Source of the DNA: the human T2T-CHM13v2.0 reference genome, Homo sapiens
NCBI RefSeq assembly: GCF_009914755.1
Contig: NC_060936.1
Direction: 5' to 3' (one strand)
DNA length: 64,000 nt
This document shows, piece after piece, positions 15,339 through 41,000 of this stretch (positions are counted from its first letter, which is position 1; every line of letters starts with the position of its first letter). The notes below the pieces were generated by a model. It was not told the DNA's origin. It saw only the letters and a program-made list of their open reading frames with translations, and searched no databases. A program made the position numbers and the translations under genes.

Positions 15339-18300
15339 AAAAAAAGCATATATTGAACCAGTCTTGCATCCCAGGGATGAAGCCTACTTGATCATGGTGG
15401 ATAAGCTTTTTGATGTGCTGCTGGATTCATTGTGCCAGTATTTTATTGAGGATTTTTGCATCAATGTTCATCAAGGATATTGGTCTAAAATTCTCTTTTT
15501 TGGTTCTGTCTCTGCCAGGCTTTGGTATCAGGATGATGCTGGCCTCATAAAATGAGTTAGGGAGGATTCCCTATTTTTCTATTGATTGGAATAGTTTCAG
15601 AAGGAATGGTACCAGTTCCTCCTTGTACCTCTGGTAGAATTCGGTTGTGAATCCATCTGGTCCTGGACTCTTTTTTGTTGGTAAGCTATTGATTATTGCC
15701 ACAATTTCAGAGCCTGTTATTGGTCTATTAAGAGATTCAACTTCTTCCTGGTTTAGTCTTGGGAGAGTGTATGTGTAGAGGAATTTATCCATTTCTTCTA
15801 GATTTTCTAATTTATTTGCGTAGAGGTGTTTGTAGTATTCTCTGATGGTAGTTTGTATTTCTGTGGGATCGGTGGTGCTATCCCCTTTATCATTTTTTAT
15901 TGTATCTATTTGATTCTTCTCTCTTTTTTTCTTTATTAGTCTTGCTAGCAGTCTATCAATTTTGTTGATCCTTTCAAAAAACCAGCTGCTGGATTCATTA
16001 ATTTTTTGAAGGGTATTTTGTGTCTCCATTTCCTTCAGTTCTGCTCTGATCTTCATTATTTCTTGCCTTCTGCTAGCTTTTGAATGTGTTTGCTCTTGCT
16101 TCTCTAGTTCTTTTAATTGTGATGTTAGGGTGTCAATTTTAGATCTTTCCTGCTTTCTCTTGTGGGCATTTAGTGCTATAAATTTCCCTCTACACACTGC
16201 TTTGAATGCATCCCAGAGATTCTAGTATGTTGTGTCTTTGTTCTCATTGGTTTCAGAGAACATCTTTATTTCTGCCTTGATTTCGTTATGCACCCAGTAG
16301 TAATTCAGGAGCAGGTTGTTCAGTTTCCATGTAGTTGAGAGGTTTTGAGTGCGATTCTTAATCCTGAGTTCTAGTTTGATTGCACTGTGGTCTGAGAGTT
16401 AGTTTGTTATAATTTCTGTTCTTTTACATTTGCTGAGGAGAGCTTTACTTCCAAGTATGTGGTCAATTTTGGATTAGGTGTGGTGTGGTGCTGAAAAAAA
16501 TGTATATTCTGTTGATTTGGGGTGGAGAGTTCTGTAGATGTCTATTAGGTCCACTTGGTGCAGAGCTGAGTTCAATTCCTGGGTATCCTTGTTGACTTTC
16601 TGTCTCATTGATCTTTCTAATGTTGACAGTGGGGTGTTAAAGTCTCCCATTATTAATGTGTGGGAGTCTAAGTCTCTTTGTAGGTCACTCAGGACTTGCT
16701 TTATGAATCTGGGTGCTCCTGTGTTGGGTGCATATATATTTAGGATACTTAGCTCTTCTTGTTGAATTGATCCCTATACCATTATGTAATGGCCTTCTGT
16801 GTCTCTTTTGACCTTTGTTGGTTTAAAGTCTGTTTTATCAGAGACTAGGATTGCAACCCCTGCCTTTTTTTGTTTTCCATTTGCTTGGTAGATTTTCCTC
16901 CATCCTTTTATTTTGAGCCTATGTATGTCTCTGCACGTGAAATGGGTTTCCTGAATACAGCACACTGTTGGGTCTTGACTCTTTATCCAATTTGCCAGTC
17001 TGTCAAATCAATAAATGTAATCCAGCATATAAACAGAGCCAAAGACAAAAACCACATGATTATCTCAATAGATGCAGAAAAGACCTTTGACAAAATTCAA
17101 CAACCCTTCATGCTAAAAACTCTCAGTAAATTAGGTATTGATGGGACGTATTTCAAAATAATAAGAGCTCTCTATGACAAACCCACAGCCAATATCATAC
17201 TGAATGGGCAAAAACTGCAAGCATTCCCCTTGAAAACTGGCACAAGACAGGGATGCCTCACCACTCCTATTCAACATACTGTTGGAAGTTCTGGCCAGGG
17301 CAATTGGGCAGGAGAAGGAAATAAAGGGTATTCAATGAGGAAAAGAGGAAGTCAAATTGTCCCTGTTTGCAGATGACATGACTGTATATCTAGAAAACCC
17401 CACTGTCTCAGCCCAAAATCTCCTTAAGTTGATAAGCAACTTCAGCGAAGTCTCAGGATACAAAATCAATGTACAAAAATCACAAGCCTTCTTATACACC
17501 AACAACAGACAAACAGAGAGCCAAATCATGAGTGAATTCCCATTCACAATTGCTTCAAAGAGAATAAAATACCTAGGAATCCAACTTACAAGGGATGTGA
17601 AGGAGCTCTTCAAGGAGAACTACAAACCACTGCTCAAGGAAATAAAAGAGGATACAAACAAATGGAAGAACATTCCACGCTCATGGGTAGGAAGAATCAA
17701 TATTGTGAAAATGGCCATACTGCCCAAGGTAATTTACAGATTCAGTGCCATCCCCATCAAGCTACCAATGCCTTTCTTCACAGAATTGGAAAAAACTACT
17801 TTAAAGTTCATATGCAACCAAAAAAGAGCCCGCATTGCCAAGTCAATCCTAAGGCAAAAGAACAAAGCTGGAGGCATCATACTACCTGACTTCAAACTAT
17901 ACTACAAGGCTGCAGTAACCAAAAGAGCATGGTACTGGTACCAAAACAGAGATATAGATCAATGGAACAGAACAGAGCCCTCAGAAATAATGCTGCATAT
18001 CCACAACTATCTGATCTTTGACAAACCTGAGAAAAACAAGCAATGGGGAAAGGATTCCCTATTTAATAAATGGTGCTGGGAAAACTGGCTAACCATATGT
18101 AGAAAGCTGAAATTGGATCCCTTCCTTACACCTTATACAAAAATCAATTCAAGATGGATTAAAGACTTAAACATTAGACCTAAAACCATAAAAACCCTAG
18201 AAGAAAACCTAGGCAATACCATTCAGGACATAGGCATGGGCAAGCACTTCATGTCTAAAACACCAAAAGCAATGGCAACAGAAGACAAAATTGACAAATG

Positions 18301-38000: not shown

Positions 38001-41000
38001 GTGTAGAGGGAAATTTATAGCACTAAATGCCCACAAGAGAAAGCAGGAAAGATCTAAAATTGACACCCTAACATCACAATTAAAAGAACTAGAGAAGCAA
38101 GAGCAAACACATTCAAAAGCTAGCAGAAGGCAAGAAATAATGAAGATCAGAGCAGAACTGAAGGAAATAGAGGCACAAAATACCCTTCAAAAAATCAATG
38201 AATCCAGCAGCTGGTTTTTTGAAAGGATCAACAAAATTGATAGGCCGCTAGCAAGATTAATAAAGAAGAAAAGAGAGAAGAATCAAATAGACGCAATAAA
38301 AAATGGTAAAGGGGATATCACCACTGATCCCACAGAAATACAAACTACCATCAGAGAATACTATAAACACCTCTACAGAAATAAAGTAAAAAATCCAGTA
38401 GAAATGGATAAAGTCCTTGACACATACACCCTCCCAAGACTAAACCAGGAAGAAGTTGAATCTCTGAATAGACCAATAACAGGCTCTGAAATTGAAGCAA
38501 TAATTAATAGCTTACCAACCAAAGAAAGTCCAGGACCAGATTGATTCACAGCTGAATTCTACCAGAGGTACAAGGGGGAGCTGATACCATTCCCTCTGAA
38601 ACTATTCCAATCAGTAGAAAAAGAGGGAATCCTCCCTAACTATTTTATGAGGTCAGCATCATCCTGATACCAAAGCCTGGCAGAGACACAACAGAAAAAG
38701 ACAATTTTAGACCAATATCCTTGATGAACATTGATGCAAAATCCTCAATAAAATACAGGCAAACTGAATCCAGCAGCATATCAAAAAGCTTATCAACCAT
38801 GATCAAGTGGGCTTCATCCCTGGGATGCAAGGCTGGTTCAACATAGGCAAATCAGTAAACGTAATCCAGCATATAAACAGAACCAACGAGAAAAACCACA
38901 TGATTATCTCAATAGATGCAGAAAAGTCCTTTGACAAATTTCAACAGCACTTCATGCTAAAAACTCTCAATAAATTAGGTATTGATGGGATGTATTTCAA
39001 AATAATAAGAGCTATCTATGACAAACCCACAGCCAATATCATACTGAATGGGCAAAAACTGGAAGCATTCCCTTTGAAAACTGGCACAAGACAGGGATGC
39101 CCTCTCTCACCACTCTTATTCAACATAGTGTTGGAAGTTCTGGCCAGGGCAATCAGGCAGGAGAAGGAAATAAAGGGTATTCAATAAGGAAAAGAGGAAA
39201 TCAAATTGTCCCTGTTTGCAGATGACATGCTTATATATCTAGAAAACCCCATCGTCACAGCCCAAAATCTCCTTAAGCTGATAGGCAACTTCAGCAAAGT
39301 CTCAGGATACACAATCAATGTGCAAAAATCACAAGCATTCTTAAACACCAATAACAGACAAATAGAGAGCCAAATCATGCATGAACTCCCATTCACAATT
39401 GCCTCAAAGAGAATAAAATACCTAGGAATCCAACTTACAACGGATGTGAAGGACCTCTTCAAGGAGAACCACAAACCACTGCTCAAGGAAATAAAAGAGG
39501 ATACAAACAAATGGAAGTACATTCCATGCTTGTGGGTAGGAAGAATCAATATCGTGAAAATGGCCATACTGCCCAAGGTAATTTATAGATTTAATGCCAT
39601 CCCCATCAAGCTACCAATGACTTTCTTCACAGAATTGGAAAAAACTACTTTAAAGTTCATATGGAACCAAAAAAGAACCAACATTGCCAAGTCAATCCTA
39701 AACCAAAAGAACAAAGCTGGAGGCATCATGCTACCTGACTTCAAACTATACTACAAGGCTACAGTCACCAAAACAGCATGGTACTGGTACCAAAACAGAG
39801 ATATAGACCAATGGAACACAACAGAGCCCTCAGAAATAATGCTGCATATCTACAACTATCTGATCTTTGACAAACCTGACAAAAACAAGCAATGGGGAAA
39901 GGATTCCCTATTTAATAAATGGTGCTGGGAAAACTGGCTAGCCATATGTAGAAAGCTGAAACTGGATCACTTCCTTACACTTTATACAAAAATTAATTCA
40001 AGATGGATTAAAGACTTAAATGTTAGACCTGAAACCATAAAAACCCTAGAAGAAAACCTAGGCAATATCATTCAGGACATAGGCATGGGCAAGGACTTCA
40101 TGTCTAAAACACCAAAAGCAACGGCAACAAAAGCCAAAGTTGACAAATGGGATCTAATTAAACTAAAGAGCTTCTGCACAGCAAAAGAAACTACCATCAG
40201 AGTGAACAGGCAACCTACAGAATGGGAGAAAATTTTTGCAATCTACTCATCTGACAAAGGGCTAATATCCAGAATCTACAATCAACTCCAACAAATTTAC
40301 AAGAAAAAAACAAACAACCCCATCAAAAATTGGGCAAAGGATATGAACAGACACTTCTCAAAAGAAGACATTTATGCAGCCAAAAGACACATGAAAAAAT
40401 GCTCAACATCACTGGCCATCAGAGAAATGCAAATCAAAACCACAATGAGATATCATCTCACATCAATTAGAATGGCGATCATTAAAAAGTCAGGAAACAG
40501 GTGCTGGAGAGGATGTGGAGAAATAGGAACACTTTTACACTGTTGGTGGGACTGTAAACTGGTTCAACCATTGTGGAAGTCAGTGTGGCGATTCCTCAGG
40601 GATCTAGAACTGGAGATACCATTTGACCCAGCCATCCCATTACTGGGTATATACCCAAAGGATTATAAATCATGCTGCTATAAAGACACATGCAAACGTA
40701 TGTTTATTGCAGCACTATTCACAATAGCAAAGACTTGGAACCAACCCAAATGTCCATCAATGATAGACTGGATTAAGAAAATGTGGCACATATACACCAT
40801 GGAATACTATGCAGCCATAAAAAATGATGAGTTCATGTCCTTTGTAGGAACATGGATGAAGCTGGAAGCCATCATTCTCAGCAAACTATCGCAAAGATGA
40901 AAAACCAAACACTGCATGTTCTCACTCATAGGTGGGAATTGAACAATGAGAACACATGGACACAGGAAGGGGATCATCACACACCAGGGCCTGTTGTGGG

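What the first reader, a model, noticed from the sequence alone, without database searches (positions are those of the whole stretch)
16028..38168. Perfect 720-bp inverted repeat between two diverged L1s: recent gene conversion and a predicted invertible ~21-kb segment
Seen: by base-by-base reading, the reverse complement of 16028-16747 (inverted arm of the second L1) is identical to 37449-38168 (full-length L1), whereas the copies differ frequently just outside the tract. The shared tract has many non-consensus bases and three in-frame ORF2 stops (TAA 37720, TAA 37795, TAG 37972). Knowledge: L1 mobilises mainly in cis, so an active source would not pass on ORF2 stops. Inference: the tract was copied after insertion. 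Inverted identical repeats about 20.7 kb apart are a substrate for NAHR that would flip the AK6/CLUH-pseudogene block; intact TSD pairs suggest the orientation shown is the original one.
Basis: partly seen in the sequence, partly recalled or inferred. Interest (0 to 1): 0.8.

Follow-up and report, generated by a model that had tools for sequence, protein, structure and literature searches.

The report
Recent gene conversion between two L1s
A 720-base stretch was copied recently from one dead L1 retrotransposon into an older neighbour lying 21 kb away in opposite orientation; this is a clean but ordinary case of repeat-to-repeat gene conversion, and no flipping of the DNA between them has been seen.

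Summary
The reverse complement of 16028-16747 equals 37449-38168 at 720 of 720 bases. Both ends are bounded by mismatches. The rest of the 1.66-kb inverted alignment is about 92.6% identical, and its longest perfect run is 57 bp.

The left L1 (15346-19365) is a 5'-inverted, twin-priming-type insertion. Its inverted arm faces a full-length, already dead L1 (35019-41176).

Genome-wide, the tract is 100% identical only at these two places; the next best copy is 97%. It carries 12 substitutions that are rare or absent in 48 other L1 copies. Three of them create the ORF2-frame stops, which occur in 0 of 48 copies.

Subfamily-diagnostic sites and substitution density point to the left L1 as donor and the full-length L1 as acceptor. 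Zero differences since the event put it in the last ~8.5% or less of the left L1's residence time, roughly under 2-4 Myr.

The target-site duplications show that the present orientation is the ancestral one. Inversion by NAHR is mechanistically possible. However, two population inversion resources, as far as their tables are held here, list no inversion at this locus.

This is a known kind of event, and I rate its interest as modest.

The parts
15339..15349 (+). 5' target-site duplication of the left L1 (11-bp A-rich word)
   Evidence: The same 11-bp word occurs at 15339-15349 and 19355-19365. It is A-rich, so this is weaker evidence than the right L1's duplication.
15346..17003 (-). Inverted 5' arm of the left L1 (twin-priming type); corresponds to 37193-38848 of the right L1
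   Evidence: BLAST 15349-17003 against 38845-37193: 95.8% over 1655 columns. The global alignment reaches 15346 against 38848.
16028..16747 (-). Left (donor) copy of the 720-bp identical tract
   Evidence: Identical at 720 of 720 bases to the reverse complement of 37449-38168.
17004..19354 (+). Direct 3' part of the left L1 with its A-rich tail; corresponds to 38848-41176 of the right L1
   Evidence: BLAST 17004-19327 against 38848-41176: 92.5%. Global alignment gives 2158/2319 = 93.06% with a longest perfect run of 81 bp, so there is no conversion here. The A-rich tail was read.
19355..19365 (+). 3' target-site duplication of the left L1
19366..35003 (.). Intervening block (AK6P2 and CLUHP8 pseudogene pieces, Alus, an old L1 fragment). 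This is the segment that a crossover in the tract would flip, together with the inner L1 parts.
   Evidence: Names come from the hub annotation. Window 24300-30400 has only old paralogues of 67-94% identity on chrY, 4q and 10q ends, acrocentric short arms, chr3, chr7 and chr12p.
35004..35018 (+). 5' target-site duplication of the right L1 (15 bp)
   Evidence: The same 15-bp word occurs at 35004-35018 and 41174-41188.
35019..41176 (+). Full-length but dead L1 (the acceptor). ORF1 is interrupted by a stop at 36430. ORF2 has stops at 37720, 37795, 37972, 38542 and 39185, and a frame change between 38544 and 38768.
   Evidence: ORF map. Pfam matches: Tnp_22_trimer and Transposase_22 at 35944-36828, Exo_endo_phos at 37132-37719, RVT_1 at 38768-39184 and from 39188. 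The ends were read.
37449..38168 (+). Right (acceptor) copy of the 720-bp tract. It covers the end of the ORF2 endonuclease domain and the stretch between the endonuclease and reverse-transcriptase domains.
37397..38208 (+). Wider, patchy conversion footprint. Shared private transversions at 37397, 38181 and 38208 are interleaved with mismatches just outside the perfect core.
   Evidence: If placed at random in the 936-bp flanks, all three would fall within 51 bp of the tract edges with probability 0.0013.
41174..41188 (+). 3' target-site duplication of the right L1

Best explanation
This is a non-allelic (ectopic) gene conversion in cis between two old L1 copies. Both L1s lie on the + strand. 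The left one was inserted with its 5' 1.66 kb inverted (twin-priming type), so that arm is an inverted repeat of the corresponding ORF2 segment of the full-length L1, 20.7 kb away.

Inferred mechanism: a DNA break in the full-length L1 was repaired using the inverted arm as template, without a crossover. That replaced up to 720 bp, and patchily up to about 812 bp, of the older L1 with the younger L1's sequence. The copied sequence included that copy's own post-insertion mutations, three of which are ORF2 stop codons.

The event is recent: less than about 8.5% of the left L1's residence time, roughly under 2-4 Myr. It left the orientation of the intervening 21 kb unchanged. The resulting 720-bp perfect inverted homology could support inversion by NAHR, but nothing shows that this has happened.
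For: What the calls show directly:
- The tract is identical at 720 of 720 bases, with sharp edges, against 92.6% identical flanks.
- In the whole assembly the tract is 100% identical only at these two places; the next best is 97% (40 of 3945 candidates scored).
- A 91-bp piece covering five private sites is 100% identical only at the same two places; the next best is 96% (40 of 697 scored).
- Of 695 tract columns where at least 90% of 48 other L1 copies agree, 12 differ in both window copies. The three stop codons occur in 0 of 48 copies.

Direction of transfer:
- The left flank's best match elsewhere is 97% and the tract's is 97%, while the right flank's is 94%.
- The panel chosen by the tract alone matches the left 3' flank at 95.5% and the right at 92.4%.
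- At sites that separate the two panels, the right L1 has the R state at 9 of 9 flank sites and the left has the T state at 7 of 9. The tract has the T state at 7 of 7.
- Private-substitution density is 35/895 in the right flanks, 22/895 in the left flanks and 12/695 in the tract. The Poisson P for 12 or fewer is 0.0009 at the right rate and 0.13 at the left rate.

Structure: the left L1's inverted and direct parts abut at the same L1 position, 38848. Both L1s keep their target-site duplications in place.

Inferred, not shown: the break-repair mechanism, and the absolute date, which uses mutation rates I recalled.
Against: - No orthologous ape sequence, second human haplotype or raw reads could be examined. 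The pre-conversion state, the non-reciprocity and the correctness of the assembly are therefore not shown directly.
- The panels were chosen by similarity to the tract or to the right flank. This inflates identity in the selected segment, so only the cross-comparisons are unbiased.
- Private density in the tract (1.73 per 100 bp) is lower than in either flank set.
- The 5' flank discriminates poorly: 94.7% against 95.7% identity, and only one diagnostic site.
- The shared private sites just outside the tract, interleaved with mismatches, show the history is not a single clean tract.
- Only 40 candidates per genome search were scored.
Confidence: 0.88

Rival explanations
1. Same gene conversion, but in the opposite direction: the full-length L1 was the donor and the inverted arm the acceptor.
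For: The 5' flank barely discriminates: the right is 94.7% and the left 95.7% identical to panel T, with only one diagnostic site. Panel T was selected on the tract itself, so the 7 of 7 T states inside the tract are partly circular.
Against: The tract-selected panel resembles the left flank (95.5%) and not the right flank (92.4%) in the unselected 3' flank. The panel chosen on the right flank disagrees with the tract at 7 of 7 diagnostic sites. The tract's best match genome-wide is 97%, like the left flank and unlike the right flank at 94%. Private density in the tract is too low for the right L1 (P = 0.0009).
Confidence: 0.08
2. Assembly or polishing artefact: one copy's sequence was wrongly imposed on the other in T2T-CHM13.
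For: A perfect 720-bp identity is also what a consensus error between repeats would look like.
Against: This is inference, not a test. The tract is far shorter than the long reads used for that assembly, and it lies in 7%-diverged flanks that anchor reads uniquely. About 53 bases would have had to be miscorrected in one block. The patchy shared private sites beyond the edges (37397, 38181, 38208) look like heteroduplex repair rather than a pile-up error.
Confidence: 0.03
3. No copying between these two loci: both L1s inherited the tract from a shared source element or subfamily variant.
For: Both are primate L1s of related subfamilies; the panels are about 95-96% identical to each other.
Against: The 12 tract substitutions are rare or absent in 48 other copies: 8 occur in none, 3 in one or two, and 1 in four. 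No other place in the genome exceeds 97% over the tract, or 96% over the 91-bp piece. Flanks belonging to the same two elements are only 92.6% identical, and the right flank belongs to a different panel group.
Confidence: 0.01

Closest known systems
Non-allelic (ectopic, interlocus) gene conversion between dispersed transposable-element copies, best documented for Alu
   Same: A block of one repeat copy is replaced by the sequence of a nearby paralogous copy. This transfers several linked mutations together and lowers divergence locally. The rate is reported to rise with proximity and identity (passages of PMC6598467).
   Different: The partners here are two L1s rather than Alus. They lie 20.7 kb apart, beyond the under-10-kb range quoted there for Alu. 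They are in inverted orientation only because one L1 carries a twin-priming inversion. The tract lies inside ORF2 and moves three stop codons.
Twin-priming 5'-inverted L1 insertions (Ostertag and Kazazian 2001, as cited in the preprint read)
   Same: An inverted 5' segment is joined to a direct 3' segment at the same L1 coordinate, with a poly(A) tail and target-site duplications around the whole. The preprint reports that 26% (330 of 1,271) of polymorphic L1s have such inversions.
   Different: The inverted segment here is 1,658 bp. That is longer than most in the survey, where 88% are under 1.5 kb and the median is 666 bp. This is an old, fixed copy, not a polymorphic one.
Balanced inversions flanked by inverted L1 pairs (retrotransposon recombination-mediated inversion; NAHR)
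   Same: Inverted L1 homology of over 90% identity flanks a segment of kilobases. Reported figures are: 22 L1-flanked inversions among 132 NAHR-type events, with 21 of 22 pairs over 90% identical (passages); 8 L1 pairs among 257 balanced inversions (passage); and 49 RRMI loci between human and chimpanzee (abstract).
   Different: No inverted allele is known at this locus, and the target-site duplications show the ancestral orientation. The 20.7-kb spacing is larger than the 5.6-kb median reported for L1-flanked inversions. Homology is only 1.66 kb.
LINE-LINE NAHR substrates for deletions and duplications (Startek et al. 2015, abstract read)
   Same: The direct parts of the same two L1s (17004-19330 and 38848-41180) are directly oriented LINE homology within 22 kb.
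   Different: That study's criteria (over 4 kb and over 95% identity) are not met: the direct homology here is 2.3 kb at 93.1%.

Membership tests
Non-allelic gene conversion tract | A block of identity far above that of the flanking homologous sequence, with sharp boundaries | tested here: met
   720 of 720 identical against 867 of 936 (92.6%) in the flanks. The next-longest perfect run is 57 bp.
Non-allelic gene conversion tract | Derived substitutions shared by the two copies and absent from other family members | tested here: met
   12 shared private substitutions in 695 informative columns. The three stop codons occur in 0 of 48 copies. Only these two places in the genome are 100% identical.
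Non-allelic gene conversion tract | Phylogenetic incongruence: the tract of the acceptor groups with the donor's lineage while its flanks do not | tested here: met
   The right L1 has the R state at 9 of 9 flank diagnostic sites and the T state at 7 of 7 tract sites. The left L1 has the T state at 7 of 9 flank sites. This is partly circular for panel T; the cross-checks are.
Non-allelic gene conversion tract | Pre-conversion state seen in an orthologue or another haplotype (non-reciprocal replacement) | not testable with these tools
   No ape or second human assembly is on hand.
Twin-priming 5'-inverted L1 | Inverted 5' segment and direct 3' segment that meet at the same L1 coordinate | tested here: met
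   The inverted arm spans 37193-38848 and the direct part starts at 38848 of the full-length copy.
Twin-priming 5'-inverted L1 | Poly(A) tail and target-site duplications around the whole compound element | tested here: met
   An A-rich tail ends near 19361. An 11-bp word is shared at 15339-15349 and 19355-19365. The word is A-rich, so this is moderate evidence.
L1-pair-flanked NAHR inversion polymorphism | Inverted L1 homology of over 90% identity on both sides of the segment | tested here: met
   1.66 kb at 95.8%, with a 720-bp perfect core.
L1-pair-flanked NAHR inversion polymorphism | Both orientations observed among haplotypes or species | tested here: inconclusive
   No chr12 row has coordinates beginning 38021-38023 or 38043-38045, and no ID begins chr12-380, in the inversion tables of PMC12350169 (65 samples). 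The held supplement of PMC12350158 has no chr12 row with those coordinate prefixes either; its only chr12-380 or chr12-381 IDs are two Alu insertions. Both files were cut when stored. The window itself shows the ancestral orientation.

The most novel reading that the evidence does not exclude
The conversion is specific to the human lineage, or even still polymorphic. It would then mark a live recombination interaction between the two L1 arms, with the 21-kb pseudogene block occasionally flipping by crossover in the 720-bp core. That would be a rare or recurrent inversion missed by current callsets. The patchy borders would record more than one exchange.
Probability: 0.1. Interest if true: 0.4.

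Novelty: new member of a known kind. Interest (0 to 1): 0.3.

Why it matters
This is a clean, datable example of L1-to-L1 ectopic gene conversion in which donor and acceptor can be told apart. It shows three things:
- A twin-priming inversion can create inverted homology between two L1s that lie on the same strand.
- Conversion can move inactivating mutations into another copy.
- Conversion can renew a long perfect homology block in otherwise 7%-diverged repeats, which is the kind of block NAHR needs.

For repeat dating and L1 subfamily assignment, it is a reminder that mosaic copies exist. The locus itself is a pericentromeric gene-poor stretch holding only pseudogene fragments, so no functional consequence is expected.

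Tried and rejected
- **PRDM9-type 13-mer (motif recalled from memory).** It matches 8 times in the window against 1.15 expected, but none lies in the tract or in either arm. The nearest are 19712 and 35443. This gives no lead on a hotspot.
- **Conversion in the direct-repeat part of the same L1 pair.** None was found; the longest perfect run is 81 bp at 93.1% identity.
- **A recent segmental-duplication paralogue that could show the pre-conversion state.** None exists. The right flank's best match elsewhere is 94% and the left's is 97%; both are ordinary dispersed L1 copies. The intervening block has only 67-94% paralogues.
- **A panel of copies chosen by the left flank.** I used the identities in the listing and did not seek the loci otherwise.
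- **Inversion toggling (two crossovers) as the source of identity.** Rejected on logic: reciprocal exchange swaps segments but does not make them identical.
- **Literature on the locus.** One paper holds AK6P2 and none holds CLUHP8. It names AK6P2 only as the nearest gene to a GWAS variant.
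Full report
**1. The observation**

The reverse complement of window 16028-16747 equals 37449-38168 at all 720 positions. The match cannot be extended by one base on either side. An inverted-repeat scan finds the pair as part of a longer repeat, 15550-17003 against 37193-38646, at 96%.

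In a global alignment of the whole inverted homology (15346-17003 against 37193-38848), mismatches lie directly at 37448 and 38169. Further mismatches follow at 37422, 37420 and 37417 on one side and 38173 and 38196 on the other. The next-longest perfect run is 57 bp. The flanks are 240/256 and 627/680 identical, which is 92.6%. At that identity, 720 bp would be expected to hold about 53 differences, and a perfect run of that length has a chance of about 1e-24 at a given start. Identity in 100-bp windows runs 92, 96, 96, then 100 six times, then 98, 94, 91, 93, 88.

**2. Anatomy**

BLAST of the left repeat region against the right one gives two collinear pieces:
- 15349-17003 matches 38845-37193 in reverse, at 95.8%.
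- 17004-19327 matches 38848-41176 directly, at 92.5%.

So the left L1 consists of an inverted 5' segment and a direct 3' segment that meet at the same L1 coordinate, 38848 of the full-length copy. It has an A-rich tail. An 11-bp word is repeated at 15339-15349 and 19355-19365. This is the structure attributed to twin priming in the literature (passages read).

The right L1 runs from 35019 to about 41176 and is flanked by a 15-bp duplication at 35004-35018 and 41174-41188. Pfam places the following:
- ORF1 domains at 35944-36828.
- The ORF2 endonuclease domain at 37132-37719 (Exo_endo_phos, E 1.4e-14).
- The reverse-transcriptase domain at 38768-39184 and from 39188.

The tract therefore covers the end of the endonuclease domain and the stretch before the reverse transcriptase.

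The right L1 is dead apart from them. ORF1 is split by a stop at 36430. ORF2 has further stops at 38542 and 39185, and a frame change between 38544 and 38768.

Both L1s are on the + strand. The inverted homology exists only because of the left copy's internal inversion. The same pair also has 2.3 kb of direct homology at 93.06%, with a longest perfect run of 81 bp, so there is no sign of conversion there.

**3. Is the tract a common L1 variant?**

It is not. Searching the window's own assembly with the tract gives 100% identity only at the two window places, and 97% at best elsewhere (40 of 3945 first-look candidates scored). A 91-bp piece covering five of the private sites is 100% identical only at the same two places; the next best is 96% (40 of 697 scored).

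I aligned 48 other L1 copies. Of 28 chosen by similarity to the tract, 27 were usable; one was dropped for a split alignment. Of 29 chosen by similarity to the right 3' flank, 21 were usable; eight were dropped for incomplete or split coverage.

Among 695 tract columns where at least 90% of these 48 copies agree, the window copies differ at 12, always together. Eight of those 12 bases occur in none of the 48 copies, three occur in one or two, and one occurs in four. The three stop codons occur in 0 of 48.

**4. Direction of transfer**

- *Best matches elsewhere in the genome.* These are 97% for the tract, 97% for the left 3' flank and only 94% for the right 3' flank.
- *Overlap of the hit lists.* One copy (contig 1, near 40.237 Mb) is among the top hits of both the tract search and the left-flank search. 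None of the right-flank hits coincides with a tract hit (my comparison of the listings).
- *Panel identities.* The panel chosen by the tract alone (T) is 95.5% identical to the left copy and 92.4% to the right copy in the unselected 3' flank. In the 5' flank the figures are 95.7% and 94.7%.
- *Diagnostic sites.* At columns that separate panel T from the right-flank panel R, the right L1 has the R state at 9 of 9 flank sites and the left L1 has the T state at 7 of 9. The tract has the T state at 7 of 7. This last count is partly circular, because T was chosen on the tract. The flank counts and the mismatch of panel R with the tract are not circular.
- *Private-substitution density.* It is 35/895 in the right flanks, 22/895 in the left flanks and 12/695 in the tract. 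Twelve or fewer has Poisson probability 0.0009 at the right copy's rate and 0.13 at the left copy's rate.

Together these point to the left, younger, 5'-inverted L1 as donor and the older full-length L1 as acceptor. I put about 0.85-0.9 on this direction, given that a conversion occurred.

**5. Borders of the tract**

Three transversions shared by both copies, and absent from 46 to 48 of the 48 panel copies, lie just outside the perfect core at 37397, 38181 and 38208. They are interleaved with sites where only one copy is private (37417, 37420, 37422, 37448, 38169, 38173).

Five flank sites are private in both copies, against 0.86 expected (P = 0.002). The three with the same base all lie within 51 bp of the tract edges (P = 0.0013 if placed at random in the flanks).

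I read this as patchy repair of heteroduplex DNA at the ends of the tract, or as a second, partly overlapping exchange. That reading is an inference. The footprint is then 37397-38208. Two sites, 37384 and 38386, are private in both copies but with different bases. I have no explanation for them.

**6. Timing**

All 12 private substitutions in the tract are shared, and none has arisen in either copy since the event. Using the left copy's own flank density as a clock, zero changes in 2 x 720 bp bounds the time since conversion to at most 8.5% of the left L1's residence time, at 95%. With per-year mutation rates of 0.5 to 1.25e-9, which are figures I recalled and not from any call, the 95% bound is 4.2 to 1.7 Myr. 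The event is thus probably younger than the human-chimpanzee split and could be polymorphic. This was not tested.

**7. Orientation and the inversion prediction**

A crossover inside the tract would carry the left L1's direct part, tail and 3' duplication, together with the right L1's 5' half and 5' duplication, to the opposite sides. Both elements are intact, with their duplications in place, so the assembled orientation is the ancestral one or has been restored.

The literature shows that inverted L1 pairs do mediate inversions:
- 22 L1-flanked events among 132 NAHR-type balanced inversions, with 21 of 22 pairs over 90% identical (median 97.2%) and a median inversion size of 5.6 kb (passages).
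- 8 L1 pairs among 257 balanced inversions in 1,019 genomes (passage).
- 49 retrotransposon recombination-mediated inversions between human and chimpanzee (abstract).

At this locus I found no report. In the supplementary tables of PMC12350169, which give inversions genotyped in 65 samples on both CHM13 and GRCh38, no chr12 row has coordinates beginning 38021-38023 or 38043-38045, and no ID begins chr12-380. The nearest call is chr12:37,648,533-37,675,245 (CHM13), heterozygous in 4 of 65 samples and about 350 kb away. In the held supplement of PMC12350158, no chr12 row has those coordinate prefixes. Its only chr12-380 or chr12-381 IDs are two Alu insertions. Both files were cut when stored, so this absence is weak evidence.

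The block that would flip holds only pseudogene fragments of an old duplicon. Its paralogues are 67-94% identical and lie on chrY, the 4q and 10q ends, acrocentric short arms, chr3, chr7 and chr12p.

**8. Comparison with what is known**

Non-allelic gene conversion between dispersed repeats is established, mostly for Alu, with higher rates between close and similar copies (passages of PMC6598467). LINE pairs are recognised NAHR substrates (abstract of PMC4344489).

This case is one more instance, not a new kind of event. Its particular points are:
- The inverted homology was created by twin priming.
- The direction of transfer can be resolved, from a younger truncated copy into an older full-length one.
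- Three stop codons were transferred.
- The borders are patchy.

No search I ran returned a paper describing this particular locus. One paper mentions AK6P2, and only as the nearest gene to a GWAS variant.

**9. Verdict**

Gene conversion is supported at about 0.88, with the remainder mostly an untestable assembly artefact or the reverse direction. The inversion remains a plausible prediction with no support so far. I rate the finding a new member of a known kind, with interest of about 0.3.

Noticed in passing
window 34937-35018 and 41510-42500: The full-length L1 sits inside an older L1 fragment. The older element's 3' part (41530-41865 and 42193-42500) matches the left L1 at only 83-85%. 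The sequence upstream of 35004 also reads as L1 coding sequence by eye.
   Followed up: partly
window 41195-41507: An antisense Alu (poly-T first) lies a few bases after the right L1's 3' target-site duplication, with what looks like a short internal insertion near 41280-41310. This was read by eye.
   Followed up: no
window 24300-30400: The AK6P2/CLUHP8 block is an old multi-copy duplicon. Its paralogues are 77-89% identical on two inverted chrY places, the 4q and 10q ends, all five acrocentric short arms, chr3 and chr7. One 1.2-kb piece is 94% identical on the other side of the chr12 centromere, near 34.12 Mb.
   Followed up: partly
outside the window: CHM13 chr12:37,648,533-37,675,245: A polymorphic 26.7-kb inversion, heterozygous in 4 of 65 samples and marked a true positive, is listed about 350 kb centromere-proximal of the window in PMC12350169 Supplementary Table 37. 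Its GRCh38 counterpart is chr12:37,705,668-37,737,663.
   Followed up: no
window 37384 and 38386 (left copy 16812 and 15810): At these two flank sites both L1 copies differ from 47-48 of the 48 panel copies, but with different bases in the two copies. This is unexplained.
   Followed up: no
window 19420-19480: A TTTC-type microsatellite followed by a long T run lies just after the left L1's 3' duplication.
   Followed up: no
whole window: The degenerate 13-mer CCNCCNTNNCCNC matches 8 times against 1.15 expected from shuffles. Several of the matched words are near-identical and look like a shared repeat (Alu by eye). None is in the L1 arms.
   Followed up: no
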